Of a stretch of DNA of 64,000 nucleotides, positions 10,255 through 40,498 are shown in pieces. Numbering within the stretch: position 1 is the stretch's first letter; every line of letters starts with the position of its first letter. The position numbers and the translations under genes were made by a program. The notes below the pieces were generated by a model, which saw only the letters and a list, made by a program, of their open reading frames with translations, did not search any database and was not told the DNA's origin. The stretch lies in contig PCWQ01000007.1 of NCBI GenBank assembly GCA_002787405.1, forward strand, positions 31,296 to 95,295, written 5' to 3'. This stretch comes from Candidatus Komeilibacteria bacterium CG11_big_fil_rev_8_21_14_0_20_36_20. Its GTDB lineage: Bacteria; Patescibacteriota; Patescibacteriia; UBA1558; GWA2-36-10.

Positions 10255-10268
10255 TAATACTTCTTCAA

Positions 10269-11090: not shown

Positions 11091-11106
11091 AATGTTATTT
11101 TAAATT

Positions 11107-11948: not shown

Positions 11949-11980
11949 AATCCTTTAAAGTTATTAAAATTGTTGATTGA

Positions 11981-12976: not shown

Positions 12977-13001
12977 TACTAATAAATTAATATTTATCGA
13001 G

Positions 13002-14105
13002 CTATTTGATTGGATCTTTCAATATCCACTCCCCTATTTTATTCTTTTTCCACATTGGTCCCCTAAATTTTTCAGCTACATTCCAGAATTTATCTAAAGT
13101 GATACCGATATAATCACAAAACTGTTTGATAAATTTCACGCCACATTTACCATCATATTCCCTAACGAGTTTGACGCCCTCTTCTCTGGTTATTCTACCA
13201 GCCCAGATATCAGCGCAAGCTTCATCGGTGGCAAAACCATAACCAAGTTTCATATGTTTTAACATCTGATTCATAATTCCCGTATCATCATCAAGGGCGT
13301 GATATTTTGTATAACGTCCCAACTCCAAAGCATCATCGGTTCTAATATGTAGACCTCTATTAATGGCAAACATTGCATGCTCATGTGGCGACCATCTCTT
13401 ATAATAGCCAAGATATATCATTTTGACTCCTGATTGTCTTATCTCCTCTTGAGATGGATAATGATAAGGGATTAGATCTTTAGCTGTCACACCATCACAA
13501 AGAAGATGGGATGAGTCACCCGAAAAACCTAAAGTATTTTGTTCATTAATTCTTGATGCATCACCACCATTTTTGTCTTCAGTGTCATCATCTAAAGTCG
13601 TAGTTTCAATATCAAAAATAACTAAGGGAACTTTATACATAATAGCTGCTCTCACCGGCGTTGCATATAAAGCATATTCCGAAGGCTTAACAGGGTTCCC
13701 CCAAGTATAAAAAGCCATTTTAGCCACTTTTTGACAGACCTTAGGATTAGGTCTAAACATAAAACAATCAAAGCCCATTTTTTGTAAATTATTGATATTA
13801 TGTCTGCCTATTTCAGTGATACCGTCAGGAACCATGTTGGCCAGCAGAACATTAAGACCAAGTACATCTCTGGCATAAAGCGCCATATAAGTACTGTCTT
13901 TGCCACCACTCACTCCAACCACACAATCATATTGAGCCCCTTTGTTTTTAGCTTCCTGAGCTATGTCTATAAGCTGTTTCCTCCTTCCCTCCCAGTCTAT
14001 CTTATCCAAGGATTCATAATAACGACAAAAGTTACAAACACCCCTGTCATCGAAATTTATACCTGGCCTTGTTTCAGGTACAACACATTTTGTACAATAC
14101 CTCAT
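13002..14105 (-). CDS. N-acetyl sugar amidotransferase (WbpG/PseA-like PP-loop ATP pyrophosphatase)
   Basis: An N-terminal Cys-rich region (MRYCTKCVVPETRPGINFDDRGVCNFC) and the PP-loop VVGVSGGKDSTYMALYA fit the WbpG/PseA family. Confidence 0.75.
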   Translation of the reverse strand: MRYCTKCVVPETRPGINFDDRGVCNFCRYYESLDKIDWEGRRKQLIDIAQEAKNKGAQYDCVVGVSGGKDSTYMALYARDVLGLNVLLANMVPDGITEIGRHNINNLQKMGFDCFMFRPNPKVCQKVAKMAFYTWGNPVKPSEYALYATPVRAAIMYKVPLVIFDIETTTLDDDTEDKNGGDASRINEQNTLGFSGDSSHLLCDGVTAKDLIPYHYPSQEEIRQSGVKMIYLGYYKRWSPHEHAMFAINRGLHIRTDDALELGRYTKYHALDDDTGIMNQMLKHMKLGYGFATDEACADIWAGRITREEGVKLVREYDGKCGVKFIKQFCDYIGITLDKFWNVAEKFRGPMWKKNKIGEWILKDPIK

Positions 14106-14130
14106 AATTTTATTATTAGTTTATTAATAA

Positions 14131-14985
14131 TTATCTTGATGTTAATTTTCTTTTTTTGAAAAATAAAGCTGTTTTTAACCAACTATAATATCTTAAATAT
14201 GTTATTAATATTAAAAATGGAAGAATGGCGATATCTTTAACAAAACCCGAACTTTTAAATGGTGTAATAAAATCGGTCATAAATGGATGACAATAAGATT
14301 TTAATTTTCTACTAATGCTCCAATTCTTAGCGTATTTCTTATAAAATAAACAGTCGCCACGACCATAACGAATCCAACGATCTATAATTGCTCCTATTGA
14401 AGCAAAACCCTTTTCATAACAAATAGCCTCAGAAATGGCAAATTTATGACCATCTTTAGCCATTCTAGTACAAAGATCTGTATCATCACTATTAGTCATA
14501 AAAGTATCATATCTATACTTTTTTAATACCTCTCTTAGAAAGAGAGTTGGCGTGCCAACTACATTCTTATAACCCGGCTTATATTTTTCTCTGTAAATAT
14601 TCTGAGCCCAACCAAGATAAGAATCTGTTTCACTTAACATTGTTATAGCAGAAACTATCGCACACTTATACTTCTCTAGATACTCTATCATCTTTATTAA
14701 AGATCCCTGGGGCATTATATTGTCAGCGCCAACAAAAACGATGTATTTACATTCGGCTGCATCTAATCCTATGTTTCGTGCATTGCCAAGCCCTTTTCGG
14801 CTATCATTAACAATTTTATCTACAAAAGGTCTGGCTATCTCTGTTGTTTTATCAGTTGAACCAGCGTCGACTAAAATTATTTCTTTAGGATTATTTTCTT
14901 TAACCGAGCTTAAGCATCCTTCTATTATCTCCTCACAATTATACGAACAAACAACCACCGATAGATCTAATAATTCATCTTCCAT
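14131..14985 (-). CDS. family 2 glycosyltransferase
   Basis: A GT-A signature reads LSVVVCSYNCEEII...ILVDAGSTDKT. 284 aa. Confidence 0.75.
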   Translation of the reverse strand: MEDELLDLSVVVCSYNCEEIIEGCLSSVKENNPKEIILVDAGSTDKTTEIARPFVDKIVNDSRKGLGNARNIGLDAAECKYIVFVGADNIMPQGSLIKMIEYLEKYKCAIVSAITMLSETDSYLGWAQNIYREKYKPGYKNVVGTPTLFLREVLKKYRYDTFMTNSDDTDLCTRMAKDGHKFAISEAICYEKGFASIGAIIDRWIRYGRGDCLFYKKYAKNWSISRKLKSYCHPFMTDFITPFKSSGFVKDIAILPFLILITYLRYYSWLKTALFFKKRKLTSR

Positions 14986-14986
14986 A

Positions 14987-16417
14987 TTATCTTTTCATGA
15001 CTAATTTTAAATAATGCATAATATAAATAAAGCTATCTTTAGTGTTTTTCACTTCATATTTTAAATTCCTTCTAATAGATGGCACGTCTTTGATTATTAA
15101 AAAAATTCTATTTGGCGGCAATTTAATCAATAAATTTACTAGCCATTTCAAATTCGGGAAACGAATTAAAAGATAACATAATTTATCTAAATTTATTAAT
15201 TGTCTTATATTATCCTGTTTTATAAGCGAATTATTGCTATCGGCGGTTGAACCAGCATTTTTGTAGGTAATTATATCTTTAAGATAATTATTATCAAGGC
15301 AATAATTCCCTATCTGAGTTTTAGGATAAGGTACCAAGACATTAGAGTTAATATCATCTAAATCAAGCTGCCTACATAAATTTATAGTCTCATAAGCATT
15401 ATCCATAGTTTCTCCTGGCCAGCCAAATATAATATCTGCGCCTATTCTAATTTGATATTTTTTTAACAGTTGACAAGCTGCTATTATTTGCTTATTGCTC
15501 ATGTTACGATTTAATAGCTCTTTTCTTAAAGTTTCATTGCCAGTTTGGATACCAATAACAAGCTTATCGCAACCAGCTTTTTTTAAAAGAGCAATATATT
15601 CTTCACTAATATCTTCAACTCTGGCATAAATTATAAATCCTGGCAATTTTTTTTCTATGTACAATTTCAAAAACTCTCTTACTTGTTCTAATTTTACATT
15701 AAAAGTTGCATCTTGAAACCTAGCCCATTTCAAACCATATTTATCTTTAACATATAATAGCTCCGCTATGAGCTTTTGAGGCGAATATAAGCGAAAATGA
15801 GTCCCGCCTCCATCCCTATAAAATTGATTTATCCAATTAGTATAGCAATAGGAACATCGAAAAGGGCAACCTCGTGATAAAATGAACGGTTTTGTCTCTA
15901 ACTTTCTTAATTTCTCATATTTCTTAAAATAAATATCTCTATCAAAAGAAGGTAAATGTTCTATATTATTAACATATGCTATGGCTGTATTTTTTTCCAC
16001 TTGTCCATTTTTCTTAAACCAAATTCCTGGAATATTGAAAAAATTTTCTTTCTTGTCTAGTCGATTTAAAATTTCTAGACAAGCTAACTCGCCGTCACCC
16101 ACACACATTAAATCTATACAATCCTCATTAACTATTTCCGGAAAAACTAAAGTAAATGCCCCGCCAATTAAAGTTAAAATATCTTTATTTATCTTCTTTA
16201 TCTCTCTCAAAATTGCAAGAACATCTTCCTGCTCTCCGATACATAAACTACAAGCAACTATATCGGGCTTAAAATTCATTACTGATTCGTAAAAACTATC
16301 TTCTTCCTCTAAACAAAAAACATCAACTACATGACCATGCTCCTTCAAAACTGAAGATATGGCCATGACGCCTAAATTTTCTAACAAGATATGCTGAAGA
16401 AAAGCAATTCTGGCCAT
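14987..16417 (-). CDS. cobalamin-binding radical SAM enzyme (class B radical SAM)
   Basis: An N-terminal B12-binding-like domain precedes the radical SAM motif CPFRCSYCY. The start codon overlaps the stop of the upstream paralog. Confidence 0.8.
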   Translation of the reverse strand: MARIAFLQHILLENLGVMAISSVLKEHGHVVDVFCLEEEDSFYESVMNFKPDIVACSLCIGEQEDVLAILREIKKINKDILTLIGGAFTLVFPEIVNEDCIDLMCVGDGELACLEILNRLDKKENFFNIPGIWFKKNGQVEKNTAIAYVNNIEHLPSFDRDIYFKKYEKLRKLETKPFILSRGCPFRCSYCYTNWINQFYRDGGGTHFRLYSPQKLIAELLYVKDKYGLKWARFQDATFNVKLEQVREFLKLYIEKKLPGFIIYARVEDISEEYIALLKKAGCDKLVIGIQTGNETLRKELLNRNMSNKQIIAACQLLKKYQIRIGADIIFGWPGETMDNAYETINLCRQLDLDDINSNVLVPYPKTQIGNYCLDNNYLKDIITYKNAGSTADSNNSLIKQDNIRQLINLDKLCYLLIRFPNLKWLVNLLIKLPPNRIFLIIKDVPSIRRNLKYEVKNTKDSFIYIMHYLKLVMKR

Positions 16418-18150
16418 TAAAGAGCCCCCCCTTCCAACAAATTCAATTCCTTGTTTATATCAATTTTAAAATGCTTAAAATAACTTCTAGAAGTCTCACT
16501 TGTCTTTAATATATCTTGAGCTTTATGCCAATTATCTTTAACCTTTAATAAATCCCCTTTGATTTCATACGCTTTGCCGAGAACATAATAAGCAATCGCA
16601 TGATCTGGTGCTAATTCAATCACTCCTTTAAAATCTCTAATTGCCTGATCTACTCTATCAGAATTTAAATTTCTGGAATTTATAAAATTGACCTCGAGAT
16701 TGGCTAAATAATTTTTTTCCAAAATATATTCTTTAGAAAAATTTGGCCAATCTACATTACTTGTAACCAAGGGATACCCATATCTTATACTATCAGCCAC
16801 AATATATCCTTTCTGGAGACACTCTTCAAATATTCTTGACCCAGGAATTGCTTGATAATTCCTAATTAAAGCCCAATCTAGATCTAAAGATCGAGCAAAC
16901 TCCAAAGTTTCTTCAACTTCTTTTTTAGTTTCAAAATGAAAACCCGAAATAAAAAAACCAATAATATAACCCTTGCCTAATTTTCTTATTCTTCTAACAA
17001 CATTTTTTGATATCTCTAAATTTAACACTTTGCCAATTTCTTTAAGTGTTTTCTGGCTGCCAGATTCAAAAGCAAGATTAAAGATAGCTATGCCACTATC
17101 ATACATCTTTTTTATTATTTCTTCATCTAGAAAATTTACACCTAAACCTCCTCCAACTCCCCAGCGAATATTCAAACCTCTTTTGATTATTTCATCCATA
17201 ATAGCCACAGCTTTTTTGGTGCTAACTGTAAAATTATCATCATTAAAAACTATTGCATTAACACCATATTCCTTAATAAGTAATTCTATCTCATCTACCA
17301 CATTTTTGGAATTACGATAACGTATTGATCTACCCCAAATGTGTTTTGCTGAACAAAAAGAACAAGAATATGGACAGCCTCGAGAAGCAGTCATAATGCC
17401 TATTTTAGCATTGTTACGACCTAAAACACGAAAGAGAAAATTTCTGCTTAAATTTCCATATTCTGAAAAATCATTGGGCATAATATAGTCATCCGGCGAT
17501 ATGTTAGTTCTGTCAGGAAAAGGCAACTCGTCTAAATTTTTGATTAAAAATTTATTTTCTTTAAATATAATATTTTTATCATCTCTATAAGCTATTCCAT
17601 GCAAATTTTCTACTCCTTTTTCTTTATTTAAAAAAAGAATTAAATCCATAAAACAAATCTCACCTTCTCCAATTATTGCATAATCTATATTATTATCTTT
17701 TAAAGCATCTGAATAAGAAATTGTAGGATAACTGCCGCCTATGACAGTGATTATGTCTGGTGATATTTTCTTTATAAGTGTACATGTTTGATGAACAATA
17801 TGTGATGTAGAATGAAACAAAGAACTCACTCCTATAATATCTGGGGAAACTTCTTCTATTTTATCTTTTAATAAACCCCAAGCTGCAGACATATCAACCT
17901 TCCCCTTAGAAATAAAATGCTTCATAGCCATTAAATTAGCATCAAAAATTTCAATCTCTACATCATTAATCTTACTTTGCAGATAAGAAGAAATATAACC
18001 AAGACCCAGTGGTGACTCTGCAAACTGACCACCAGATATTACCGTCTCGTAATTATAAGAATTGGTCTCTATAATAAATGGATTTATTAATAAAATTTTC
18101 TTGACTCTAGGCATAATTTTTATATAGTTTTTTTGATTTCCAGACAGCAT
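16417..18150 (-). CDS. cobalamin-binding radical SAM enzyme with a C-terminal TPR-like extension
   Basis: A B12-binding-like N-terminal domain precedes CPYSCSFCS. The C-terminal roughly 100 aa are TPR-like. Confidence 0.8.
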   Translation of the reverse strand: MLSGNQKNYIKIMPRVKKILLINPFIIETNSYNYETVISGGQFAESPLGLGYISSYLQSKINDVEIEIFDANLMAMKHFISKGKVDMSAAWGLLKDKIEEVSPDIIGVSSLFHSTSHIVHQTCTLIKKISPDIITVIGGSYPTISYSDALKDNNIDYAIIGEGEICFMDLILFLNKEKGVENLHGIAYRDDKNIIFKENKFLIKNLDELPFPDRTNISPDDYIMPNDFSEYGNLSRNFLFRVLGRNNAKIGIMTASRGCPYSCSFCSAKHIWGRSIRYRNSKNVVDEIELLIKEYGVNAIVFNDDNFTVSTKKAVAIMDEIIKRGLNIRWGVGGGLGVNFLDEEIIKKMYDSGIAIFNLAFESGSQKTLKEIGKVLNLEISKNVVRRIRKLGKGYIIGFFISGFHFETKKEVEETLEFARSLDLDWALIRNYQAIPGSRIFEECLQKGYIVADSIRYGYPLVTSNVDWPNFSKEYILEKNYLANLEVNFINSRNLNSDRVDQAIRDFKGVIELAPDHAIAYYVLGKAYEIKGDLLKVKDNWHKAQDILKTSETSRSYFKHFKIDINKELNLLEGGAL

Positions 18151-18914
18151 ACAGATAGTTGTTGGGGAATTGAATCAGATGATGTTCCATCATTCCATCC
18201 ATAATTATTATCATAAACAAAAATCTTTTTTTCTTCAATTTTAATATTAGGAAAATCTAACAATTTGTTTAAACGTTTATTGTCATATCGCAGCTCCAAA
18301 GCATACAACCCTAAACTATCTTTTTCAGTAATTATTTTTTCTCCTCCAAAAGGAACTGTTAATAATAGTTTGCCTCCTGGTTTTAAAACTCTAATCATTT
18401 CTTTCATTACCTTAAAATCTTCAGTCCATGTTTCAAGAGATGGAAAAAAATCAGGTAAATCTTTAGAACGATCAAATGAAGACCTCCCTCCCGCTAAATT
18501 AACCTTATCAAAGCCAATATGCTCAATGGTGGATATGCACATAATTTGGTTAAAAAAATTATCCGGATATGGTATATTGCGGGCATCAGCTTTTTGAAAT
18601 TTAATCTTTTCTTTCAACAAATCTGTCTCTACAAAATCTGCAAATCTTTTATAATTGAATGGAATAATATCTATAGAATAAAAATCTTCAGTGGAAAGTA
18701 TGAGTGATTCAAAAAAAACTTTAAAATATTTCCGATCAAAAAATGTTGTACTTAGATCTAATACTTTTTCATGTTTATCTTTTAAAACCCGTAAAATAAC
18801 CCAAGGAATTTCCACGCAACGCATTGATTTTTCCATTAACAAACTACTAAATCCCTGCTCACCGTGGCCAATATCATTTTTTTTATCTTGAAGGAATTTT
18901 TTTATTTCTTCCAT
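18120..18914 (-). CDS. class I SAM-dependent methyltransferase
   Basis: Methyltransf_11-like motifs are present (IPYPDNFFNQIMCISTIEHI and LKPGGKLLLTVPFG). Confidence 0.55.
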   Translation of the reverse strand: MEEIKKFLQDKKNDIGHGEQGFSSLLMEKSMRCVEIPWVILRVLKDKHEKVLDLSTTFFDRKYFKVFFESLILSTEDFYSIDIIPFNYKRFADFVETDLLKEKIKFQKADARNIPYPDNFFNQIMCISTIEHIGFDKVNLAGGRSSFDRSKDLPDFFPSLETWTEDFKVMKEMIRVLKPGGKLLLTVPFGGEKIITEKDSLGLYALELRYDNKRLNKLLDFPNIKIEEKKIFVYDNNYGWNDGTSSDSIPQQLSVCCLEIKKTI

Positions 18915-18915
18915 A

Positions 18916-21084
18916 TTAATGACTTAAATCAATGACTATTTTATTTCTAAATAAAGAATCTGATGAACTCAATAATTTTTCCTCTTTATTAGCTATAACA
19001 ATTATCTCTGAAAATTTGACAAGCTCTTTCAAGTTATCCGTCAATAATGAAGATATATGTGGAATATGATTTATAATATAGTTTTTATTAGCTCCAAATA
19101 TTCTTGCCATATAAATATTTTTATCAAATATTGACACTTCAATCCCTTTGCCTATTAAATGCTCTACTATATCTATCATGGGGCTGTTTCTTAAATCATC
19201 TGTATTTTCTTTAAACGATAAACCAATTATCCCAATTTTCTTTTTATTAAAAGATAAAATAGTCTTTAAAATATTCTTTATATGCATGTTGTTGCTATTT
19301 AAAATATTAAATATCACCGGCAATTCTAAATCTCTCTTTTTAGCTCTGTTAACAAAAGCATTCAAATCTTTAGGAAGACATGAACCACCAAAGGGTTTGC
19401 CTGGCTTTAAATAATACGGTGATAAATTTAATTTTCTATCTTTGCAAAATATCTCCATAACTTTATGAGAATTAACACCAGCTGACTTACAGAATGTATC
19501 AATTTCATTAGCAAATGAAACCTTAAGAGCATGAAAAACATTATCAACATATTTAACAGTCTCTGCTGTTTTAATGTCAGTAACCATTTTCTCGCCAGAA
19601 ACATTATTATACAATAAATCCATCAAAAATTTGCCATCCTTTTCATCTTCTGCTCCAATAATTATTTTAGGGGGATTATAAAAATCAAAAATAGCTGAAC
19701 CCTCTCTTAAAAACTCCGGATTATGACATAATTTAATATTCTTGAATACTTTTTCTCCACATATTTTTAATAACATTGGCTTAATTATTGAATCAATTGT
19801 CCCTGGTAAAATAGTACTCCTAATTATAATAGTATGTTCCGAATTCTTTACCAATAAAGCTTTTGCTATTGTCGTAATAGCTTTTTCAATACTTGTATAA
19901 TCAATGCTGCCATTAGCTAAAGATGGCGTACCCACGCAAATCACGCTAATAGCCGTATTGATTATTGCAAAATCAACATCATCGGTGGCTTTTAATCTTC
20001 CGCACTCGACAGCGCTTTTTATTAAAGGACCTAATTCTGTTTCTATTAATGGGGCAACTCCTTGATTAATGGCTCCGATTTTAATAGGATTAACATCAAC
20101 ACCGATAATTTCAAAATTATTCTTTGCTAAACAGGCAGCGGAAACACAACCAACGTAGCCTAAACCGAAAATGCTGATTTTATTTATTTGATCTACGGAG
20201 GGCAAGCTTATTTTATCAACCGGCTCGCTTACCTTGTGTACACTAGAGAAATCCTGATGCTGCATCAAACTTCTAATTGCTAATTGCTCCTCTTCTTTCA
20301 AGGATTTAAAATAACCATCATCTCTTTTTATGTCACTATTGATTTCTAGCAACTCCGGATAATCTTTTAATAAATTAAGTATATCTTTCATGAAAAAAAT
20401 ATTTCTATCTTTGTATAAATTCTTATACACTTCTCTGACAAATTTTAAATCGCGTTCTTCATCAACTGTCCAACGCATTTGAGAATAATCCTGATCACAA
20501 TCATCTCCCTGAAAAGTATTAATTTTAAAGATTTGAGAATTATTCCAAATATAAGGCGTCACATGTTCTCTCTCGGATTTTAACTTTGCTTCTTTCCATG
20601 CTTTTTCTAAAGAACTAAAATTAAATACTTCCGTGTCTAAACCATCAGGATATGCTGAATCCATTGATTTATTAGTATGAGCTGTGCTAACATAATCAAA
20701 ATTATTTTTTAAGAAATATTCTATTGTTTTATCTATGATATTTGGATCTATCAAAGGACAGTCGCCTGTGATCCTTACAATGATATCAGTTTTATATTTC
20801 TTTGCTGCTTGATAATATCTATCTAAAACATCTGATTCGCTTCCCGTATAAACATCAATGCCTATTTGAGACGCGACTTCAACTAACTTCTGATCTATCA
20901 GCTTGTCACTAGTGGCTAATATTACTTTATCAATTTTACTAGTGCTTTTGACCCTATTTACTACATGCCAAATCATTGGTTTGCCAGCAATATCAGCTAT
21001 TACTTTATTAGGCAACCTTTCCGCACTCATCCTAGCTTGAATAATTGCTACTATCATAATATTTGTGGGGCTAGACCATAACAA
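18916..21084 (-). CDS. bifunctional fusion of an N-terminal PseF/SpsF-like acylneuraminate cytidylyltransferase and a C-terminal UDP-sugar 6-dehydrogenase
   Basis: The N-terminus (IIQARMSAERLPNKV) is characteristic of the CTP_transf_3 family. The C-terminal half carries the NAD-binding motif GLGYVGCVSAACLA and the catalytic-Cys motif FGGSCLPKD of the UDP-glucose/GDP-mannose dehydrogenase family. Confidence 0.75.
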   Translation of the reverse strand: MLWSSPTNIMIVAIIQARMSAERLPNKVIADIAGKPMIWHVVNRVKSTSKIDKVILATSDKLIDQKLVEVASQIGIDVYTGSESDVLDRYYQAAKKYKTDIIVRITGDCPLIDPNIIDKTIEYFLKNNFDYVSTAHTNKSMDSAYPDGLDTEVFNFSSLEKAWKEAKLKSEREHVTPYIWNNSQIFKINTFQGDDCDQDYSQMRWTVDEERDLKFVREVYKNLYKDRNIFFMKDILNLLKDYPELLEINSDIKRDDGYFKSLKEEEQLAIRSLMQHQDFSSVHKVSEPVDKISLPSVDQINKISIFGLGYVGCVSAACLAKNNFEIIGVDVNPIKIGAINQGVAPLIETELGPLIKSAVECGRLKATDDVDFAIINTAISVICVGTPSLANGSIDYTSIEKAITTIAKALLVKNSEHTIIIRSTILPGTIDSIIKPMLLKICGEKVFKNIKLCHNPEFLREGSAIFDFYNPPKIIIGAEDEKDGKFLMDLLYNNVSGEKMVTDIKTAETVKYVDNVFHALKVSFANEIDTFCKSAGVNSHKVMEIFCKDRKLNLSPYYLKPGKPFGGSCLPKDLNAFVNRAKKRDLELPVIFNILNSNNMHIKNILKTILSFNKKKIGIIGLSFKENTDDLRNSPMIDIVEHLIGKGIEVSIFDKNIYMARIFGANKNYIINHIPHISSLLTDNLKELVKFSEIIVIANKEEKLLSSSDSLFRNKIVIDLSH

Positions 21085-21710
21085 GATCTAATAACCAGAT
21101 GGCGATGGATATTAAATCCATTTTTATTAATTTTTTCTGGATCTACATAACGTCCTATATAAACCCTATCACCATTGTGGTCCTTGTCAGAACACCAAAT
21201 AAAATCGTGCGCCCATAAAATCTGACCCTTATTTAATAAATAATAAGAAAAGAAAGTAAAAGCTGCTAAAATGGCTGAAGGGAAACCTTCCTTCATTTTT
21301 AAATCATTGTGTATTGTTTCAGGACTTTTACCACGACTATCTTCTGTAACATTTTTTTTAATTAAATACCATTTAAAATCTAAAACTTGATCATTAGCGA
21401 ATTTCTCATTCAAATACCAGTCCTGACTATAAAAACAGGGCTCTGATTTATCAGGCTGCCAACCAAAAATTGATCGCAGTTTGTTGATTGTTAATTTTTG
21501 TCCATCTGAGCTTTCGGGCATTCCTAGAATCAAAATATAATCATGTTTAATATTAATTTGCTCTAGATAATCCACGCTAAAAGGAACTTTTGGTATTGAT
21601 GATCTAAAGTTAAACGTATTAGATATTTTAAACTCGGAACTTATCGTCTTAAGCTCTTCCGGCCCAATAAAATCCGAGCCCATTATTTTTTTTATTTGTT
21701 GAAAATCCAT
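21054..21710 (-). CDS. hypothetical protein
   Basis: A 218-aa ORF in operon context with no recognisable motif. Confidence 0.4.
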   Translation of the reverse strand: MDFQQIKKIMGSDFIGPEELKTISSEFKISNTFNFRSSIPKVPFSVDYLEQINIKHDYILILGMPESSDGQKLTINKLRSIFGWQPDKSEPCFYSQDWYLNEKFANDQVLDFKWYLIKKNVTEDSRGKSPETIHNDLKMKEGFPSAILAAFTFFSYYLLNKGQILWAHDFIWCSDKDHNGDRVYIGRYVDPEKINKNGFNIHRHLVIRSCYGLAPQIL

Positions 21711-21716
21711 ATTTAA

Positions 21717-22310
21717 CTACTTTTGTTTCTCTTTCCAACTTTGATAATCCACTGCTGCTCTAATACTAACCAGATGGCCCTTTTTTCTATATTGTTTTAT
21801 TTTTGCCAACTCCACCCCTAAAAGTTGCAAGCGAGTTAGATTAGAATAACTAGTTTGTTCAAACCAGGAAAGGTCGCGAGCAGGCGCATTAAATATTTGT
21901 ATTTTTAATCTTGCCTGCTTCATTGCTTGTAAAAATGTAAGAAATGCTCTATCTTGATGAAAATGTGAAGCAACCAAAATTATTTTTTTCCACTTTTTAT
22001 TCCTTACTATCTTCATCACCTCCACCCCCTGATCATAGGTGTTCTGAGAATTATCTTCTATAACAATTTTATTTTTTGGTACACCTGCTTTTAATAATTT
22101 TTTAGCTAATAGACCAGCAGGAATAGTAAACTGCGGTACACTAGTGCACCCGCCTGAGACAACAATATTTTTTGCTAAGCCATCTTGAAATATTTTTAAG
22201 GTCTGTTTGAATCGATTATAACCATCTCCTTCTAACCAAATAACAGCATCTGATTTTTTAACAATGTCATTACTAGTGATGGCTATTAATGCTACCTCGT
22301 TAAATTTCAT
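21717..22310 (-). CDS. hypothetical protein (possibly DUF218/YdcF-like)
   Basis: 197 aa. The IVVSGG stretch is reminiscent of DUF218; the similarity is weak. Confidence 0.35.
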   Translation of the reverse strand: MKFNEVALIAITSNDIVKKSDAVIWLEGDGYNRFKQTLKIFQDGLAKNIVVSGGCTSVPQFTIPAGLLAKKLLKAGVPKNKIVIEDNSQNTYDQGVEVMKIVRNKKWKKIILVASHFHQDRAFLTFLQAMKQARLKIQIFNAPARDLSWFEQTSYSNLTRLQLLGVELAKIKQYRKKGHLVSIRAAVDYQSWKEKQK

Positions 22311-22325
22311 AATTATTTTAATTAT

Positions 22326-23438
22326 CTAATTAAGATCTCCCCAATATATTGCTTCTCTGGCTTTAATATCATTCTTAGCTCTGCGTCCAACTATAGTATC
22401 CTTATGTTTTGGAAGAATACCTACCGCTGGTCTTAATTCAATAATATCATCATCTTTAATAACTTCGCCTTTATTAATGTCTTTCTTGGCGTGCAATGAA
22501 CGACGTTGAACAATTACCGTTTCTGCTTCTTCTTCAACCACATCTTTCACGGTACTGCCAAGGGCTTTCTCTAATAATCTTATTTGCTCAACCATTTTTT
22601 TGAATTTTTGTGCTTCCATTGAATGAGGATGATCTGGTCCATTGTCTTTATTGCTCAAAGTAAAATGTTTTTCAATCACCCTTGCTCCTAAGGCGACTGC
22701 TCCTAAAACCACTAAACTGCCAGGGGAATGATCAGAATAACCAGTCATAACATCAAAAGTGTTTTGATACGTTTTTAATACATTAATATTAGCACTCTCA
22801 ACTTTTGATGGATAATTAGTAATGCACTGCAAAAGCACTAAATCATTATTGCCTGTTGATTTGATAATTTTAACCGCCTCATCTATTTCAGCGAGGGTGC
22901 TATCTCCAGTTGACAGCATTATTGGTTTATTTTTCTTAGCAATGTATTTTAATATTTCATGCCAAGTGATATCTCCTGAACCAATCTTAAAAAAATCAAC
23001 TCCTAACTCATCCAAAAGATCTACAGCTGCAAAATCATAAGGAGCAGAAGTAAACAAGACACCTATTTGCTGACAATAATCAAAAAGTTCTCTATGCCAT
23101 TCTCTTGGAAATTCAGCTTCCTTAAAAACTTCATCAATAGGCTTATCCCATGTTCCATGCACTCCCTTTAACTTCATTTTGGAAAAACTTGGCCCAGAAA
23201 CAATCGTATCAGCCGAAAAAGTCTGAAACTTTACTACATCAGCACCAGATTTTTTAGCAGCCAAGGCTAACTTTTTAGCTTTTTCTAAACTACCATCAAA
23301 ATTTGCTCCAATATCAGCTATAATTAAGGTAGAGTGACCTTCACCAATAAATTTATGAGCAATGGGAATATTTTTAGAAAATTTACTCATACACTTTACT
23401 TTAATAATAATTTCTTTAAATCTTTTGCTGTCATCCAC
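22326..23438 (-). CDS. nonulosonic acid synthase (NeuB/PseI/LegI family, with C-terminal SAF domain)
   Basis: LIIADIGANFDGSLEKAKKLALAAKKSGADVVKFQTF is typical of NeuB-family aldolases. 370 aa. Confidence 0.85.
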   Translation of the reverse strand: MDDSKRFKEIIIKVKCMSKFSKNIPIAHKFIGEGHSTLIIADIGANFDGSLEKAKKLALAAKKSGADVVKFQTFSADTIVSGPSFSKMKLKGVHGTWDKPIDEVFKEAEFPREWHRELFDYCQQIGVLFTSAPYDFAAVDLLDELGVDFFKIGSGDITWHEILKYIAKKNKPIMLSTGDSTLAEIDEAVKIIKSTGNNDLVLLQCITNYPSKVESANINVLKTYQNTFDVMTGYSDHSPGSLVVLGAVALGARVIEKHFTLSNKDNGPDHPHSMEAQKFKKMVEQIRLLEKALGSTVKDVVEEEAETVIVQRRSLHAKKDINKGEVIKDDDIIELRPAVGILPKHKDTIVGRRAKNDIKAREAIYWGDLN

Positions 23439-24367
23439 TCTTTATTTGTGTCGCTAACAAAACCAATGTTAGACTCCATCTTCTTCCCCATATCTAAAAA
23501 CTTTTTAAAATGTTCTTCCTTATTATAAGACTCGGACAAAACAACAAAATATTTATCTAACTCTACTGTATGTCTGGTTTCTTCTTTAGTTACCAGTGTT
23601 TCGTGTAATTTTTCACCAGGCCTGATGCCAATGATTTCCCTAGGGACGTTAGGCGCTAGGGCGTTAACTAAATCAACTAGTTTCATACTCGGAATTTTTG
23701 GTATAAAAATTTCTCCTCCCTGCATATTCTCTAGAGTAAATAACACTAATCTAAAAGCTTGCTCTAAGGTTATCCAAAATCTAGTCATCCTTTCATCAGT
23801 TATATATACCTTTTCAAGACTTGATTTCTTCAAAAGATGTTCCACAATACTTCCCCGACTGCCTATAACGTTGCCGTATCTAACACAACTAAACTTAGTT
23901 TTATCAGTGGCGTAAGAATTACCACTGCTAAATAATTTTTCTGCACAAAGTTTGGTCGACCCGTATAAATTGACCGGCTGAGCAGCTTTATCAGTCGAAA
24001 TTAATACCACTCTCTTAACTTGCTGATCAATAGCGGCATCAATAACGTTCTGGCTGCCTAGAATATTCGTTTTTACTGCCTCAAATGGATTATATTCTAA
24101 TGTTGGAATTTGTTTTAAAGCCGCTGCATGAATAATAATATCAACCCCACGAAAAGCCCGTTGCAATCTCTGTAAATCTCGCACATCACCAAGAAAAAAT
24201 CTTAACCTATCATCAGATATTTCTTTTTTCATTTCTGACTGCTTTAATTCATCACGGCTGAAGACGATTAATTTCTTTAGTTGATAATTATCAAGTAAAA
24301 ATTTTGTAAAGCTTTTGCCAAAAGATCCGGTTCCACCGGTGACTAAAACGGTTTTATTGTCTAACAT
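23396..24367 (-). CDS. UDP-GlcNAc 4,6-dehydratase (PseB/CapD-like SDR)
   Basis: The N-terminus reads MLDNKTVLVTGGTGSFGKSF...IVFSRDELKQSEM, as in PseB/FlaA1. Confidence 0.85.
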   Translation of the reverse strand: MLDNKTVLVTGGTGSFGKSFTKFLLDNYQLKKLIVFSRDELKQSEMKKEISDDRLRFFLGDVRDLQRLQRAFRGVDIIIHAAALKQIPTLEYNPFEAVKTNILGSQNVIDAAIDQQVKRVVLISTDKAAQPVNLYGSTKLCAEKLFSSGNSYATDKTKFSCVRYGNVIGSRGSIVEHLLKKSSLEKVYITDERMTRFWITLEQAFRLVLFTLENMQGGEIFIPKIPSMKLVDLVNALAPNVPREIIGIRPGEKLHETLVTKEETRHTVELDKYFVVLSESYNKEEHFKKFLDMGKKMESNIGFVSDTNKEWMTAKDLKKLLLK

Positions 24368-24414
24368 AAATTTAAAATTATAATTTATTATTATTTTATT
24401 AAAATTTAAGATTA

Positions 24415-25836
24415 CTATTTTAATGCCTCAATTACTCTCTTGGTCATATTAGACATACTCTCTTGTCTACTAATTTTTGTTGGTAAATCAGTGGGATTGA
24501 TAATAAAAGCATCAAAATTAATATTATCGACGCTTTTCAAATAATTAATAATATCCTGCTGATTTATACGAAAACCATTTTTAATTCTATTAAAAGCCAC
24601 CTTACAACTTTCAACATTATTCACTCTAAAAACACCAGGACAATCTCTATACCAGGGAAGTCCGAAGATAAGAGGTGGCTTAGAATTTAATAATGCTTCC
24701 CAGCCAGCTGTCCCAGTAACTGTAGCCACCGCTTGTGCTTTATAGATAAGATCAAAGGTACTAGTCGAAACTGGGATTAAAGACACATTCTTTAATTTTA
24801 AAATCTTTGTATAATAACCTGGATAGCGACCATCTGCATAATTTATTCCATGAAACCACCATTGAGCAGGGTGTTCCTTTGTATATATAACCCAATCATC
24901 AGGCAAGGCGCTACTCAAAACCTCTAACATAAGAATTTGATCAACAAATACATCGCCCATAGGGCTAGTTGTATATTCGGGCTGATATTGCAGTGGTACG
25001 TAAATAAATTTTTTGGATAAATCCGGAACACATTGAAATTTAAGATATTCTTTTTTGGTATTTTGTTTTAATCTCTTATTAAGATGCCCCATGGCCGATT
25101 TCAAAATCTTCCCCCGCTTAATATGCTTACCTGTAATTTTTAATTTAGTTAAAAATAAATTGACCCCAGTATACTGCCTCCTTCCTTCTTTCATATATAT
25201 TGGCGTCGCATCGCGATTCTTATCCACACCTTGAATATAGTGTTCTCGTAAATCATTACTAAGATCTTCGATGGAAAAATGTTTACCTCTATTACTCTCT
25301 ATTTCCTTACATAAGACCTGACTACCCTTACGAAAGTCTTCGTACATGATAGTTTTACCAAACTGCCATGTTGATTCGAACATTAGTGTTTTTATTCTGA
25401 ATAATTTTGCTAAGGAATAAATCACATAATCATGCGATGAATGAGGTGGAAAGGCATAAACAATAGCATCTGGTTTATATTTTTTAAGAACGCCATTCCA
25501 ATATTGTAAAAGGTTGTAATATAAATGTTTGCGTTCATCAACCCTCTGCATGCCATGACACTTTCTATTCATCATGGTTAAAATTAAAGATTCATCATGA
25601 TATAATTTCTCTATTAAATCAACACCCGGCGCTGGAAATTGCGATGTATCAACACCCGGCGCTGGTTTAGCGACCCAAGCATCTGGATGATTATGAAAAA
25701 TAATTTCAGGATATTTCTTTTCTACTCCCCCAGAAAACCCTAGCCAATAAACAACCTTATGAGAATTTCTTTTTAATTCTAATAGTAATTCTTCTATTTC
25801 TGGCCCACATTGTGTCCAACTCAAAAGTATACGCAT
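24415..25836 (-). CDS. capsule-polysaccharide-biosynthesis-like protein (KpsC/KpsS family, Capsule_synth); candidate retaining Kdo or nonulosonic-acid transferase
   Basis: The segment YVPLQYQPEYTTSPMGDVFVDQILMLEVLSSALPDDWVIYTKEHP matches the Capsule_synth core pattern (vLfPLQ...vvKeHP). Confidence 0.5.
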   Translation of the reverse strand: MRILLSWTQCGPEIEELLLELKRNSHKVVYWLGFSGGVEKKYPEIIFHNHPDAWVAKPAPGVDTSQFPAPGVDLIEKLYHDESLILTMMNRKCHGMQRVDERKHLYYNLLQYWNGVLKKYKPDAIVYAFPPHSSHDYVIYSLAKLFRIKTLMFESTWQFGKTIMYEDFRKGSQVLCKEIESNRGKHFSIEDLSNDLREHYIQGVDKNRDATPIYMKEGRRQYTGVNLFLTKLKITGKHIKRGKILKSAMGHLNKRLKQNTKKEYLKFQCVPDLSKKFIYVPLQYQPEYTTSPMGDVFVDQILMLEVLSSALPDDWVIYTKEHPAQWWFHGINYADGRYPGYYTKILKLKNVSLIPVSTSTFDLIYKAQAVATVTGTAGWEALLNSKPPLIFGLPWYRDCPGVFRVNNVESCKVAFNRIKNGFRINQQDIINYLKSVDNINFDAFIINPTDLPTKISRQESMSNMTKRVIEALK

Positions 25837-25841
25837 ACAAA

Positions 25842-27623
25842 CTAATTATTTCTTAAATTATATATTTTAAAAAAATAAGAATTTTTATTTTTTAATAATG
25901 CCTTTGGCCTTCCTTGTTCAATAATTTTACCTCCACTTAAAACAATCAATCTATCCGCATCAGTTATCGTTGATAATCTATGCGCAATCACTAGAACTGT
26001 CATATAACCTTTAAGATGATTAATAACTTCTTGTATTTCTTTTTCCGATTCAACATCCAAAGCGCTCGTTGCTTCATCAAAAATCAATAATTGTGGATTT
26101 TTAACCAAAATACGCGCAATAACAACTCTTTGACGCTGTCCAGCTGAAAGTAAAATACCGCGCTCGCCAATTATAGTATCAAACTTATCAGGATAACCTT
26201 GAATAAAATTATAGATACTAGCCATCTTAGCAGCTTGTTCTACTTCTTGATCACTAATGGAGTTATCATAAAATTTAATATTATTGGCAATTGTATCGTT
26301 TATTAAAAATATATCTTGAGAAACATAACCAATGTTCTTTCGCCAATCATCTAAACTAATGGAATTAATATTTTTTCCGTCCAACAAAATTTGTCCATCC
26401 TTAGGATTAAATAAACGCAAAATCAAATCAATTAACGTGGTCTTTCCAACTCCCGAAGGACCTATAATACCAATCATCTCCCCTTTCTTGACTCCAAAAT
26501 TAATATTAGACAATATTTTTTTATGATGCTCATAATAAAAATTTATATTTTTAAATTCTAAATTTTTATTAAACAAAAAGGGAGCTGATCCCTTATTAAT
26601 TTCTTTGTTAGCGACAGCTTTTTGTTCGTAACTTAATACACTATTCAAATATGGAACAAATTCATTAATAGTATTTAAATTGCTTTGTAATTGCTGAAAA
26701 TATACAAAAATTCTTTCTATTAAATATATTATTGCCGCTAGAGACGCAAAATTAAAATCGGGTGATTTATAGAAAAAAGCAAAGATTAAACAAATAAAAA
26801 TTATACTAACAGGTTGAATAAGAGAATATGAGATGGCCTGCAATAAAAGAATTTTTATTGATATTTTTTTTAACTTATTAAAATAATCTTGCCCCTTTAA
26901 CAATACTTTATTCTCAACAGACATTCCTTTGACTGTTTTAATCCCCATAATATTCTCATTAACATAATGCGCTATCTCCTTATTACTATCTGACATCTTT
27001 CTAGAAGATACTTTAATCTTATAAATTATCGGTTTTAAAAAAAGAAACAGTAACATTCCTATGGCGAAAACCAGTGCAGTAATAGTCATAGAAATGTTTA
27101 TTGCTACTAAAGTATAAATCAATAAACTAGTTATTTGCATTATAGCGGCACTAATTTGTCTTAATAAAACCGCACTGGCACGCACATCTGTCATTATGAC
27201 AGTTTCTAGATAGCCTAACTTTTGCTTTAATAAATATGGCCAGTCGGCCTTAAGAGTTTTATCTAATAATAAGCCCCTGGTTTTTTCTTCATAATCCGAA
27301 GTTATTTTTATCTTAATATAATTAAAAATAACTGTTGCAACTGTTTTTAAAAAAAACAAAATACTAATAAATATTAGTAGCCATATTACACTTGGGGTAA
27401 TATGAATAAACGAGAAAAAATTACCAATAATTCTAGATATCAAATTATCGCCAGATTGATCCTTTAAGATAAAAGAAAATAAAGGAATTAAAGTATTAAT
27501 TCCAATACCTTCCAACAAACTTGCTATAAAGCCCAATATTACTAAAATTATGATTTGTGATTTATATTTTCCAAACGCTTCTTTTGATAATTTTAGAATT
27601 GTAGTTACTCTATTATTTCTCAT
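25842..27623 (-). CDS. ABC exporter, fused permease and ATPase (MsbA/PglK-like)
   Basis: Six N-terminal TM helices are followed by Walker A (GPSGVGKTT), the ABC signature (LSAGQRQRVVIAR) and Walker B (LLIFDEATSALD). Confidence 0.85.
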   Translation of the reverse strand: MRNNRVTTILKLSKEAFGKYKSQIIILVILGFIASLLEGIGINTLIPLFSFILKDQSGDNLISRIIGNFFSFIHITPSVIWLLIFISILFFLKTVATVIFNYIKIKITSDYEEKTRGLLLDKTLKADWPYLLKQKLGYLETVIMTDVRASAVLLRQISAAIMQITSLLIYTLVAINISMTITALVFAIGMLLFLFLKPIIYKIKVSSRKMSDSNKEIAHYVNENIMGIKTVKGMSVENKVLLKGQDYFNKLKKISIKILLLQAISYSLIQPVSIIFICLIFAFFYKSPDFNFASLAAIIYLIERIFVYFQQLQSNLNTINEFVPYLNSVLSYEQKAVANKEINKGSAPFLFNKNLEFKNINFYYEHHKKILSNINFGVKKGEMIGIIGPSGVGKTTLIDLILRLFNPKDGQILLDGKNINSISLDDWRKNIGYVSQDIFLINDTIANNIKFYDNSISDQEVEQAAKMASIYNFIQGYPDKFDTIIGERGILLSAGQRQRVVIARILVKNPQLLIFDEATSALDVESEKEIQEVINHLKGYMTVLVIAHRLSTITDADRLIVLSGGKIIEQGRPKALLKNKNSYFFKIYNLRNN

Positions 27624-40493: not shown

Positions 40494-40498
40494 ATTCT

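What the first reader, a model, noticed from the sequence alone, without database searches (positions are those of the whole stretch)
18916..21084. Fusion of a PseF-like CMP-nonulosonate synthetase with a UDP-sugar 6-dehydrogenase
A single 722-aa ORF joins a CTP_transf_3 cytidylyltransferase (QARMSAERLPNKV) to a complete nucleotide-sugar dehydrogenase. The dehydrogenase has its Rossmann motif and the catalytic FGGSCLPKD.

These activities normally belong to different branches: CMP-activation of a nonulosonic acid versus oxidation of a UDP-hexose to a uronic acid. Their covalent fusion is unusual. It implies coordinated supply of two activated sugars (a nonulosonate and a hexuronate) for the same glycan.
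Basis: seen in the sequence. Interest (0 to 1): 0.6.

Follow-up and report, generated by a model that had tools for sequence, protein, structure and literature searches.

The report
Two neighbouring sugar-pathway genes fused
In one uncultured groundwater bacterium, two adjacent genes of a cell-surface sugar pathway (one activates a sialic-acid-like sugar, the other oxidises a nucleotide-sugar) have lost the stop codon between them and become a single gene; the fusion is real, but it is a recent event in one lineage and not a new kind of enzyme.

Summary
The ORF is real. It lies on the minus strand at 18916-21084; the likely gene is 18916-21057 (713 aa) with one continuous frame. It has an N-terminal CTP_transf_3 cytidylyltransferase and a complete C-terminal nucleotide-sugar 6-dehydrogenase. 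The same DNA was recovered in at least five independent assemblies and on 24 contigs, and it has three NCBI accessions from Candidatus Komeilibacteria (CPR), so it is not an assembly artefact.

Two labels need correcting. The transferase is SpsF/COG1861-type, not PseF (35 bits against a cut-off of 206). The dehydrogenase is AlgD-like, i.e. GDP-mannose 6-dehydrogenase type (393 bits, 43.6% identity, end to end), not UDP-glucose type (221 bits or less).

In every relative that has both genes they are adjacent but separate. The closest relative of the transferase half has no dehydrogenase. The window reads TTG|ATG where a relative has TTG-TGA-a-ATG, so the stop and spacer were lost. The "linker" is the transferase's own tail plus the dehydrogenase's old Met and a disordered leader.

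No other CT-DH fusion was found in 5.8 billion clustered proteins, 1.84 billion representatives or GTDB genomes.

Best reading: two independent activities tethered in a pseudaminic-acid-type glycan island. Interest is modest.

The parts
18916..21057 (-). Deposited as a hypothetical protein (PIR06977.1, PIR81348.1, PJC54978.1); UniRef calls it 'UDP-glucose 6-dehydrogenase'.
20266..21057 (-). SpsF/COG1861-type cytidylyltransferase half, aa 1-264. It includes its own C-terminal helical tail (KSLKEEEQLAIRSL), the CTP-binding motif IQARMSAERLPNK, and GDCPL aligned to the GDEPL motif of KdsB.
   Evidence: Pfam PF02348, 134 bits; PDB 6OEW, 134 bits; 53-79% identity to stand-alone ~255-aa proteins named SpsF; tail homology to L007, L010 and L013; pLDDT above 90 and helix 247-267
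20263..20268 (-). Fusion point: codons L264 (TTG) and M265 (ATG). Relative L007 has TTG-TGA-a-ATG at the corresponding place, so 4 nt (stop plus 1-nt spacer) are missing here. M265 is the ancestral dehydrogenase start codon.
   Evidence: DNA and protein comparison with L006, L007, L010, L012, L013
20182..20265 (-). Former N-terminal leader of the dehydrogenase (aa 265-292, MQHQDFSSVHKVSEPVDKISLPSVDQIN), now the flexible tether. No homologue covers it. The only population variant (S271Y) lies here.
   Evidence: query coverage stops at 88%; pLDDT below 50 for 268-284
18916..20181 (-). AlgD-like nucleotide-sugar 6-dehydrogenase half, aa 293-713: Rossmann GLGYVG, catalytic Cys560 in FGGSCLPKD, and all three family domains.
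   Evidence: TIGR03026, 374 bits against 189.8; AlgD 1MFZ/1MV8, 393 bits, 43.6% identity over 413 aa; catalytic residues conserved
21054..21710 (-). Conserved 218-aa protein of unknown family. Its stop overlaps the fusion's start (ATGA). Homologues sit directly upstream of the transferase in L006, L012 and L013.
22326..23390 (-). NeuB-family nonulosonate synthase (NeuB and SAF domains). It scores just below both the NeuB and PseI equivalog cut-offs. It is the presumed source of the transferase's substrate.
23396..24367 (-). PseB equivalog (inverting UDP-GlcNAc 4,6-dehydratase), the first step of a pseudaminic-acid-type pathway.
   Evidence: TIGR03589, 462 bits against cut-off 407.75
18120..18914 (-). 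Methyltransferase immediately downstream. It is followed by two B12-binding radical SAM enzymes, a GT2 and a WbuX amidotransferase, all in the same operon-like module as the relatives.

Best explanation
The gene encodes a bifunctional protein made by a recent in-frame fusion of two neighbouring, translationally coupled genes. These genes lie in a pseudaminic-acid-type glycan island of a Candidatus Komeilibacteria (CPR) genome. The stop codon of the upstream SpsF-type cytidylyltransferase and the 1-10 nt spacer before the downstream dehydrogenase start were lost (shown by comparison with relatives). Translation therefore runs from the transferase's natural C-terminal tail straight into the dehydrogenase's old start Met and its 28-residue leader. 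That leader now serves as a disordered tether (structure prediction).

Inferred functions: the N-terminal half uses CTP to convert the nonulosonic acid made by the adjacent NeuB/PseI-like synthase into its CMP-activated donor. The C-terminal half uses 2 NAD+ and Cys560 to oxidise C6 of an NDP-hexose to the uronic acid. The most likely reaction is GDP-mannose to GDP-mannuronate. The two halves act independently on different substrates and supply two donors for the same surface glycan. The fusion enforces 1:1 co-expression but is probably close to neutral.
For: The fusion is real and reproducible. Both halves pass their family thresholds. Catalytic residues are intact: AlgD T124, E157, E161, K210, N214, N252, Y256, C268, K271, D272, K324 and R331 are all conserved (residue roles from PMC10619135 and PMC10740432). 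The CTP-binding ARxSxRxPxK-type motif and the GD(C/E)PL motif align with KdsB.

The closest relative, L006 (78% and 76% identical), has the same gene order but two genes 10 nt apart. L007-L009 have a 1-nt gap and L010 an 11-nt overlap. The transferase tail is homologous to the tails in L007, L010 and L013, and the DNA reads TTG|ATG against TTG-TGA-a-ATG.

The dehydrogenase is dispensable for the transferase: L012 (transferase 79% identical) and L013 lack it. A 53%-identical dehydrogenase stands alone without a transferase.

The neighbours include a PseB equivalog, a NeuB/PseI-like synthase and a WbuX amidotransferase. An asparagine-synthase-like amidotransferase, of a kind known to amidate uronic acids, lies in the island.

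SpsF genetics: B. subtilis delta-spsF cells make legionaminic acid but cannot transfer it (PMC7439481).

The AF2 model has two confident domains, residues 268-284 at pLDDT below 50, and pTM 0.61.
Against: Neither activity has been assayed for this protein or for any close relative. No SpsF-type enzyme has been characterised biochemically in what I could read, and 6OEW is an unannotated structure. The CPR dehydrogenase subclade differs from AlgD at the substrate loop (GFAF to GKPF, R259K, C213D), so its sugar or nucleotide specificity may have shifted. No GDP-mannose synthesis gene was seen in the window. No PseC, PseH or PseG homologue was seen, so the nonulosonate pathway is itself non-canonical. 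All fused copies come from one near-clonal population, so persistence under selection is untested.
Confidence: 0.6

Rival explanations
1. Consecutive-step (channelling) enzyme: the dehydrogenase half oxidises the CMP-linked sugar made by the transferase half, or the transferase activates the sugar the dehydrogenase needs. The product would be an unprecedented oxidised nucleotide-ulosonic acid.
For: In the CPR subclade the dehydrogenase, whenever present, lies immediately downstream of the transferase and is translationally coupled to it. The substrate-loop residues differ from AlgD (GKPF for GFAF, C213D). Fusions often join consecutive steps (general knowledge).
Against: L012 and L013 keep the transferase and the synthase without any dehydrogenase. 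Dehydrogenases 44-53% identical stand alone in many phyla without a transferase. The sugar-contacting and catalytic residues of AlgD are conserved. The adjacency in four loci reflects one shared ancestral arrangement, not independent events. Pse- and Leg-type acids are 9-deoxy and have no terminal CH2OH to oxidise (established chemistry).
Confidence: 0.07
2. The dehydrogenase half is a UDP-sugar 6-dehydrogenase (UDP-glucose, UDP-GlcNAc or UDP-ManNAc), as the first reader and UniRef label it.
For: The family (TIGR03026) includes these enzymes. AglM and TuaD models give 273 and 217 bits. The neighbouring PseB equivalog uses a UDP-sugar. The subclade is divergent at the substrate loop.
Against: All UDP-glucose, UDP-ManNAc and UDP-GlcNAc dehydrogenase equivalogs score far below their cut-offs (273 against 670, 217 against 700, 158 against 750, 80 against 592). 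AlgD matches end to end at 393 bits, against 221 bits for the best UDP-glucose dehydrogenase structure. Homologues have the AlgD length of 436-441 aa, and JGI names them GDP-mannose 6-dehydrogenase.
Confidence: 0.2
3. Partial fusion: besides the 713-aa protein, a free dehydrogenase is still made from the retained ancestral start codon M265. Functionally the locus would then still behave much like two genes.
For: The ancestral ATG is retained in frame at 20263-20265. The leader after it is disordered and unconstrained.
Against: The Shine-Dalgarno AAGAGG that sits 7 nt upstream of the start in L007 and L010 reads AGAAGT in the window. No promoter-like signal above chance was found (34 sites against 32.7 expected). 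There are no expression data.
Confidence: 0.2
4. Sequencing or assembly artefact that merged two ORFs.
For: The same island contains a carbamoyltransferase split by a frameshift at an A8 run, so indel problems or real indels do occur here.
Against: The gene has identical DNA in five independent assemblies made with different assemblers and samples. It was read on 24 contigs and is in three separate NCBI MAGs. The junction is not a homopolymer. The 37-codon junction is free of stops in a ~30% GC genome, while the other frames have 6-7 stops.
Confidence: 0.02

Closest known systems
Split CT + DH gene pair in the closest relatives (L006, Logan SRR19430202; L007-L010, JGI and ENA metagenomes)
   Same: Same gene order (PseB-like, NeuB, DUF218, 216-aa hypothetical, CT, DH, methyltransferase, B12-radical SAM x2, GT2, WbuX). 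The two halves are 78% and 76% identical to L006.
   Different: There the two are separate genes (10-nt gap, 1-nt gap or 11-nt overlap) of 256-263 aa and 440-442 aa. The window lacks the stop and spacer and has a 28-aa dehydrogenase leader instead of 5-6 aa.
SpsF of Bacillus subtilis / COG1861 cytidylyltransferases (structure 6OEW)
   Same: The same branch of CTP_transf_3: 134 bits to 6OEW over the whole domain, and 53-66% identity to many proteins named SpsF. It is adjacent to a NeuB-family synthase. Genetics place SpsF at the activation/transfer step for legionaminic acid (PMC7439481).
   Different: SpsF proteins are stand-alone and ~240-265 aa. The substrate here is probably a Pse-type rather than a Leg-type acid, because a PseB equivalog is present. 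No biochemistry is available for either.
AlgD, GDP-mannose 6-dehydrogenase of Pseudomonas aeruginosa (PDB 1MFZ/1MUU/1MV8)
   Same: End-to-end match at 393 bits and 43.6% identity. The catalytic Cys268, K210, N214, D272, E157, E161, T124, K324 and R331 are conserved.
   Different: AlgD is a stand-alone 436-aa enzyme of alginate synthesis. Here the domain carries an N-terminal fusion, sits in a nonulosonate island with no alginate genes, and differs at the substrate loop (GFAF to GKPF, R259K, C213D).
PseF, CMP-pseudaminic acid synthetase (TIGR03584)
   Same: The same Pfam family and the same predicted chemistry (CTP + nonulosonate gives CMP-nonulosonate). The neighbourhood includes a PseB equivalog.
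   Different: It scores 35.5 bits against a cut-off of 205.7, and only over the first ~130 residues. It is not a PseF orthologue.
Known bifunctional nucleotide-sugar enzymes (E. coli K1 NeuA synthetase-esterase, ArnA, GlmU, HldE; from my own knowledge, not tested here)
   Same: Two sugar-nucleotide pathway activities on one polypeptide, joined by a linker.
   Different: Those fusions are widespread and conserved, and they usually join steps of one pathway. This one joins a cytidylyltransferase to a 6-dehydrogenase, was found in one lineage only, and its halves most likely serve two different sugars. Other fusions seen here involve different partners: CT-CT, DH-DH, GT-DH, DH-REC and CT-methyltransferase.

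Membership tests
Pfam CTP_transf_3 (PF02348) cytidylyltransferases | Score above the gathering threshold over the nucleotidyltransferase fold | tested here: met
   133.9 bits against 22.6, aa 12-219 of the 722-aa ORF
Pfam CTP_transf_3 (PF02348) cytidylyltransferases | N-terminal CTP-binding Arg/Lys motif and the acidic GD(E/C)P motif | tested here: met
   IQARMSAERLPNK and ITGDCPLIDP align with KdsB IPARYASTRLPGK and VQGDEPLVPP
PseF (CMP-pseudaminic acid synthetase, TIGR03584 equivalog) | Whole-protein score at or above the curated cut-off | tested here: not met
   35.5 bits against 205.7; only model positions 1-127 of 222 match
KdsB (CMP-Kdo synthetase, TIGR00466 and PRK05450/PRK13368 models) | Whole-protein score at or above the curated cut-off | tested here: not met
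   61 against 155; 93 against 255; 88 against 193. The match covers the N-terminal half only
SpsF / COG1861-type cytidylyltransferase | Full-length homology to SpsF-named proteins, including the C-terminal extension beyond the core fold | tested here: met
   53-79% identity over aa 1-256 to 120 stand-alone proteins that sources name SpsF, acylneuraminate cytidylyltransferase or 'glycosyltransferase family protein'. 6OEW matches aa 4-238. The libraries used hold no curated equivalog model.
SpsF / COG1861-type cytidylyltransferase | CMP-nonulosonate synthetase activity | not testable with these tools
   Only genetic evidence exists, for B. subtilis SpsF (PMC7439481)
Nucleotide-sugar dehydrogenase (TIGR03026; UDPG_MGDP_dh N, central and C domains) | All three domains present and score above the cut-off | tested here: met
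   374.3 bits against 189.8; PF03721 167, PF00984 92, PF03720 54 bits
UDP-glucose 6-dehydrogenase (AglM NF041297, TuaD NF047673, PRK15057) | Equivalog score at or above the cut-off | tested here: not met
   273 against 670; 217 against 700; 134.5 against 757
GDP-mannose 6-dehydrogenase (AlgD type) | Closest characterised homologue, matched end to end | tested here: met
   1MFZ at 393 bits, E 1e-116, query 1-414 to chain 2-414, against 221 bits for the best UDP-glucose dehydrogenase; 43.6% identity
GDP-mannose 6-dehydrogenase (AlgD type) | Catalytic Cys268 and the active-site set (T124, E157, E161, K210, N214, Y256, D272, K324) | tested here: met
   All conserved. R259K, F262K and C213D differ (residue list from PMC10619135 and PMC10740432)
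GDP-mannose 6-dehydrogenase (AlgD type) | Specificity for GDP-mannose | not testable with these tools
   No assay is possible. No curated AlgD equivalog matched at E <= 0.01 in the NCBIfam scan. The substrate-loop differences leave this open.
Conserved bifunctional fusion enzyme | The same two-domain architecture recurs in independent lineages | tested here: not met
   Only P0001 and its 1-residue variant are fused. None was found among the 120 best hits of each half, the 150 best of 1.84 billion representatives, or the 80 best loci of GTDB genomes and of JGI metagenomes.

The most novel reading that the evidence does not exclude
The CPR subclade of AlgD-like dehydrogenases, always placed immediately after an SpsF-type transferase and here covalently joined to it, has shifted specificity. 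On this reading it oxidises a cytidine-linked ulosonic acid, or another product of the transferase, making a nucleotide-activated dicarboxylic 'ulosaric' sugar that has no described biosynthesis. The fusion would then be a true two-step channel.
Probability: 0.07. Interest if true: 0.7.

Novelty: new variant of a known kind. Interest (0 to 1): 0.3.

Why it matters
The fusion works as a small Rosetta-stone link. It ties an SpsF-type cytidylyltransferase, a widespread branch with no published biochemistry, to an AlgD-like dehydrogenase. Both sit in a heavily decorated nonulosonic-acid glycan island of a CPR bacterium (PseB, a NeuB-like synthase, WbuX, four B12-radical SAM enzymes, several methyltransferases). 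CPR cell-surface chemistry is essentially unknown. The fusion also gives a clean, datable example of how bifunctional sugar-nucleotide enzymes arise: a 4-nt loss between translationally coupled genes, with the former N-terminal leader reused as a linker. It does not reveal a new catalytic principle. The public labels ('hypothetical protein', 'UDP-glucose 6-dehydrogenase') could be improved.

Tried and rejected
1. Assembly artefact. Rejected: identical DNA in five assemblies and on many contigs, and the junction is not a homopolymer.

2. PseF orthology. Rejected on the curated cut-off.

3. UDP-glucose dehydrogenase orthology. Rejected on the curated cut-offs and on the AlgD comparison.

4. Search for the same fusion elsewhere.
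- The full-length and the N-terminal-half searches of 5.8 billion clusters found none.
- The exhaustive HMMER search of 1.84 billion representatives gave only other architectures.
- The GTDB genome scan gave dehydrogenase-only matches.
It did not even recover the source population, so it is weak evidence.

5. Promoter and terminator scan around the gene: counts equal chance (34 against 32.7; 3 against 2.8), so it says nothing about an internal promoter.

6. Literature searches found no relevant paper. Terms tried: cytidylyltransferase with GDP-mannose dehydrogenase, CPR with pseudaminic acid, 6OEW, and COG1861.

7. PDB sequence search for the coupled 218-aa protein: no hit.

8. A simple stop-codon point mutation as the origin. 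Rejected: the alignment shows that the stop plus spacer are absent and that the 37-residue 'linker' is a composite of pre-existing termini.
Full report
OBSERVATION. The minus strand carries one uninterrupted ORF at 18916..21084 (722 aa from a TTG). The upstream ORF ends in ...TTATGA, and the ATG inside it (21057-21055) starts MIVAIIQARMS. JGI, ENA and NCBI gene calls all give 713 aa from that ATG, so the gene is most likely 18916..21057. Pfam finds CTP_transf_3 (134 bits) followed by the N-terminal, central and C-terminal domains of the UDP-glucose/GDP-mannose dehydrogenase family (167, 92 and 54 bits).

IS THE FUSION REAL? The exact protein (P0001) is on record from NCBI, JGI, ENA, Logan and UniRef. 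It has three NCBI accessions from Candidatus Komeilibacteria MAGs. It was read on 24 contigs. Five loci fetched from three JGI samples and two ENA MEGAHIT assemblies have a gene identical to the window at all 2142 nt, with at most 1 mismatch over 10-14 kb of flank. A second cluster member differs only by S271Y and is also 713 aa. The junction frame is open, while the other two frames have 6-7 stops over the same 52 codons. The junction is not in a homopolymer. An assembly artefact is therefore very unlikely. All copies do, however, come from one near-clonal population.

WHAT THE TWO HALVES ARE. The N-terminal half is not a PseF orthologue. TIGR03584 gives 35.5 bits against a cut-off of 205.7, and the KdsB models also fail. 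Its best solved relative is the uncharacterised 'cytidylyltransferase' 6OEW (134 bits, whole domain); KdsB enzymes match only the first ~115 residues. Its 120 best database relatives are stand-alone ~255-aa proteins that sources name SpsF, acylneuraminate cytidylyltransferase or 'glycosyltransferase family protein', which is the COG1861 branch. In B. subtilis, delta-spsF cells still make legionaminic acid but cannot transfer it to the spore. That fits a CMP-activating step (PMC7439481).

The C-terminal half passes the generic nucleotide-sugar dehydrogenase model (374 against 190 bits). It fails every UDP-glucose, UDP-ManNAc and UDP-GlcNAc dehydrogenase equivalog by a wide margin. Its best solved relative is P. 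aeruginosa AlgD GDP-mannose 6-dehydrogenase. That match runs end to end at 393 bits (E 1e-116) and 43.6% identity; the best UDP-glucose dehydrogenase gives 221 bits. The catalytic Cys268 and T124, E157, E161, K210, N214, N252, Y256, K271, D272, K324 and R331 are conserved. R259K, F262K and C213D differ (residue roles from PMC10740432 and PMC10619135). Database homologues are 436-441 aa, like AlgD, and JGI names them GDP-mannose 6-dehydrogenase.

HOW THE FUSION AROSE. The closest relative is L006, whose two proteins are 78% and 76% identical to the window's halves. It has the same gene order: ABC transporter, Capsule_synth, PseB-like, NeuB, DUF218, 216-aa hypothetical, CT, DH, methyltransferase, two B12-radical SAM enzymes, GT2 and WbuX. 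There the transferase (256 aa) and dehydrogenase (440 aa) are separate genes 10 nt apart. More distant relatives have a 1-nt gap (L007-L009) or an 11-nt overlap (L010). The pair is therefore ancestrally adjacent and translationally coupled, and the fused state is derived.

The transferase tails of the relatives are ...RSLKEDQTIYKL*...KSFIEGDLINVKRL* and ...KSLREDKIINVKRLGNGQ*. They match the window's ...KSLKEEEQLAIRSL. L007 DNA reads aagaggTTG-TGA-a-ATG where the window reads agaagtTTG-ATG. The stop codon and spacer (4 nt relative to L007) are missing, which puts the dehydrogenase's own ATG (M265) in frame.

The apparent 37-residue linker (window 20182-20292) is therefore the transferase's natural tail plus the old start Met and a 28-residue N-terminal leader. 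The leader is 5-6 residues in L006, L007 and L010, and 18-20 in P0011 and P0004. No homologue covers the leader. The AAGAGG Shine-Dalgarno of L007 and L010 reads AGAAGT here, which suggests weaker independent initiation. That last point is an inference.

ANATOMY OF THE PROTEIN. An AlphaFold2 model built on a 45-sequence alignment gives two confident domains, with pLDDT mostly above 90 for residues 1-245 and 293-713. The transferase tail forms a helix (247-267). Residues 268-284 have pLDDT below 50. pTM is only 0.61, so there is no defined inter-domain packing. The single known population variant, S271Y, lies in this low-confidence stretch. Together these describe two independent enzymes on a flexible tether.

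HOW SPECIFIC IS THE PAIRING? The dehydrogenase is optional. L012 (transferase 79% identical) has DUF218, the hypothetical protein, CT, GT2, a radical SAM enzyme, a methyltransferase and WbuX, with no dehydrogenase. The Niyogibacteria locus L013 also lacks it. Conversely, a 53%-identical dehydrogenase sits in an unrelated polysaccharide cluster without a transferase. Dehydrogenases 44-50% identical occur alone in many Proteobacteria. This argues against the dehydrogenase making the transferase's substrate or needing its product.

IS THE ARCHITECTURE FOUND ELSEWHERE? No other fused protein appears in any of these searches:
- the 120 best hits of the whole protein or of the N-terminal half;
- the 150 best of 1.84 billion representatives, 288 bits and above. 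The multi-domain hits there are CT-CT, DH-DH, GT-DH, DH-beta-helix and DH-response-regulator;
- the best 80 loci of 185,579 species genomes;
More distant fusions cannot be excluded, because no domain-architecture search was available. No paper describing such a fusion was found.

CONTEXT AND MECHANISM. The island also encodes:
- a PseB equivalog (462 against 408 bits);
- a NeuB/PseI-like synthase just below both cut-offs;
- a WbuX N-acetyl-sugar amidotransferase;
- a class-III aminotransferase;
- an asparagine-synthase-like amidotransferase;
- a KpsC/KpsS-like Capsule_synth protein;
- many GT4 and GT2 enzymes and four B12-radical SAM enzymes;
- methyltransferases, Wzy-like proteins, an initiating sugar transferase and an ABC exporter.

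The best-supported reading has the N-terminal half CMP-activating a Pse-type nonulosonic acid made by the adjacent synthase. The C-terminal half makes an NDP-uronic acid, most likely GDP-mannuronate, for the same glycan. The two act independently. The fusion fixes 1:1 expression but is probably near-neutral.

Shown here: the fusion, its origin, domain identities, intact catalytic motifs, and the optional status of the dehydrogenase. Inferred: both substrates, the independence of the halves, and neutrality.

VERDICT. This is a new domain combination within the well-known class of bifunctional sugar-nucleotide enzymes. It is confined to one lineage and has a clear, simple origin, so interest is modest (0.3). 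The residual novel reading is a true two-step channel that makes an oxidised cytidine-linked ulosonic acid. It is not excluded but is unlikely (about 0.07).

Noticed in passing
window 9286-11090 (-), frameshift near 10323-10330: A carbamoyltransferase (Carbam_trans_N + C) is split into two ORFs by a frameshift at or next to an A8 run. The Niyogibacteria relative L013 has an intact 607-aa gene. It could be a pseudogene, a phase-variable tract or a homopolymer error. The loci fetched here do not cover it.
   Followed up: partly
window 21054-21710 (-): A 218-aa protein is translationally coupled (ATGA) to the fusion. A 205-217-aa gene sits directly upstream of the transferase in L006, L012 and L013. 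The window protein has no Pfam, NCBIfam or PDB sequence match. It is a candidate missing step of the nonulosonate pathway.
   Followed up: partly
window 8094-27623 (whole island): A PseB equivalog and a NeuB/PseI-like synthase are present, but no DegT-type PseC, PseH or PseG homologue was seen among ORFs of 150 aa or more. A GSA-aminomutase-like class-III aminotransferase (8094-9407) is conserved in all related clusters. This suggests a non-canonical route.
   Followed up: no
window 14987-18150 and 39057-41941 (-): The glycan island holds four B12-binding radical SAM enzymes, one with TPR repeats, and at least five SAM methyltransferases. This hints at unusual C-methylation or similar decoration of the sugars.
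   Followed up: no
window 24415-25836 (-): A 473-aa Capsule_synth (KpsC/KpsS-like) protein lies next to an ABC exporter and PseB. It is a candidate transferase for the CMP-activated ulosonic acid. It has no NCBIfam match.
   Followed up: no
window 50191-53994 (-): A 1267-aa ORF has no Pfam match and lies in the only GC-rich stretch of the window (0.41-0.44 against about 0.30-0.35 elsewhere).
   Followed up: no
window 34744-36875 (-): An RtcB-like ligase homologue (93 bits) and a CDP-alcohol phosphatidyltransferase are embedded among glycosyltransferases. These are unexpected partners for a glycan cluster.
   Followed up: no
P0241, P0315, P0343 (database proteins, ~500 aa): Tandem SpsF-type cytidylyltransferase duplications (two CTP_transf_3 stretches on one chain) exist in the protein database. 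P0135 is a CT-Methyltransf_24 fusion. This transferase branch therefore fuses readily with other partners.
   Followed up: partly
window 20245-20247 (codon 271): The only sequence variant of the fusion on record (P0391, ENA ERZ27293372) is S271Y, inside the disordered tether.
   Followed up: yes
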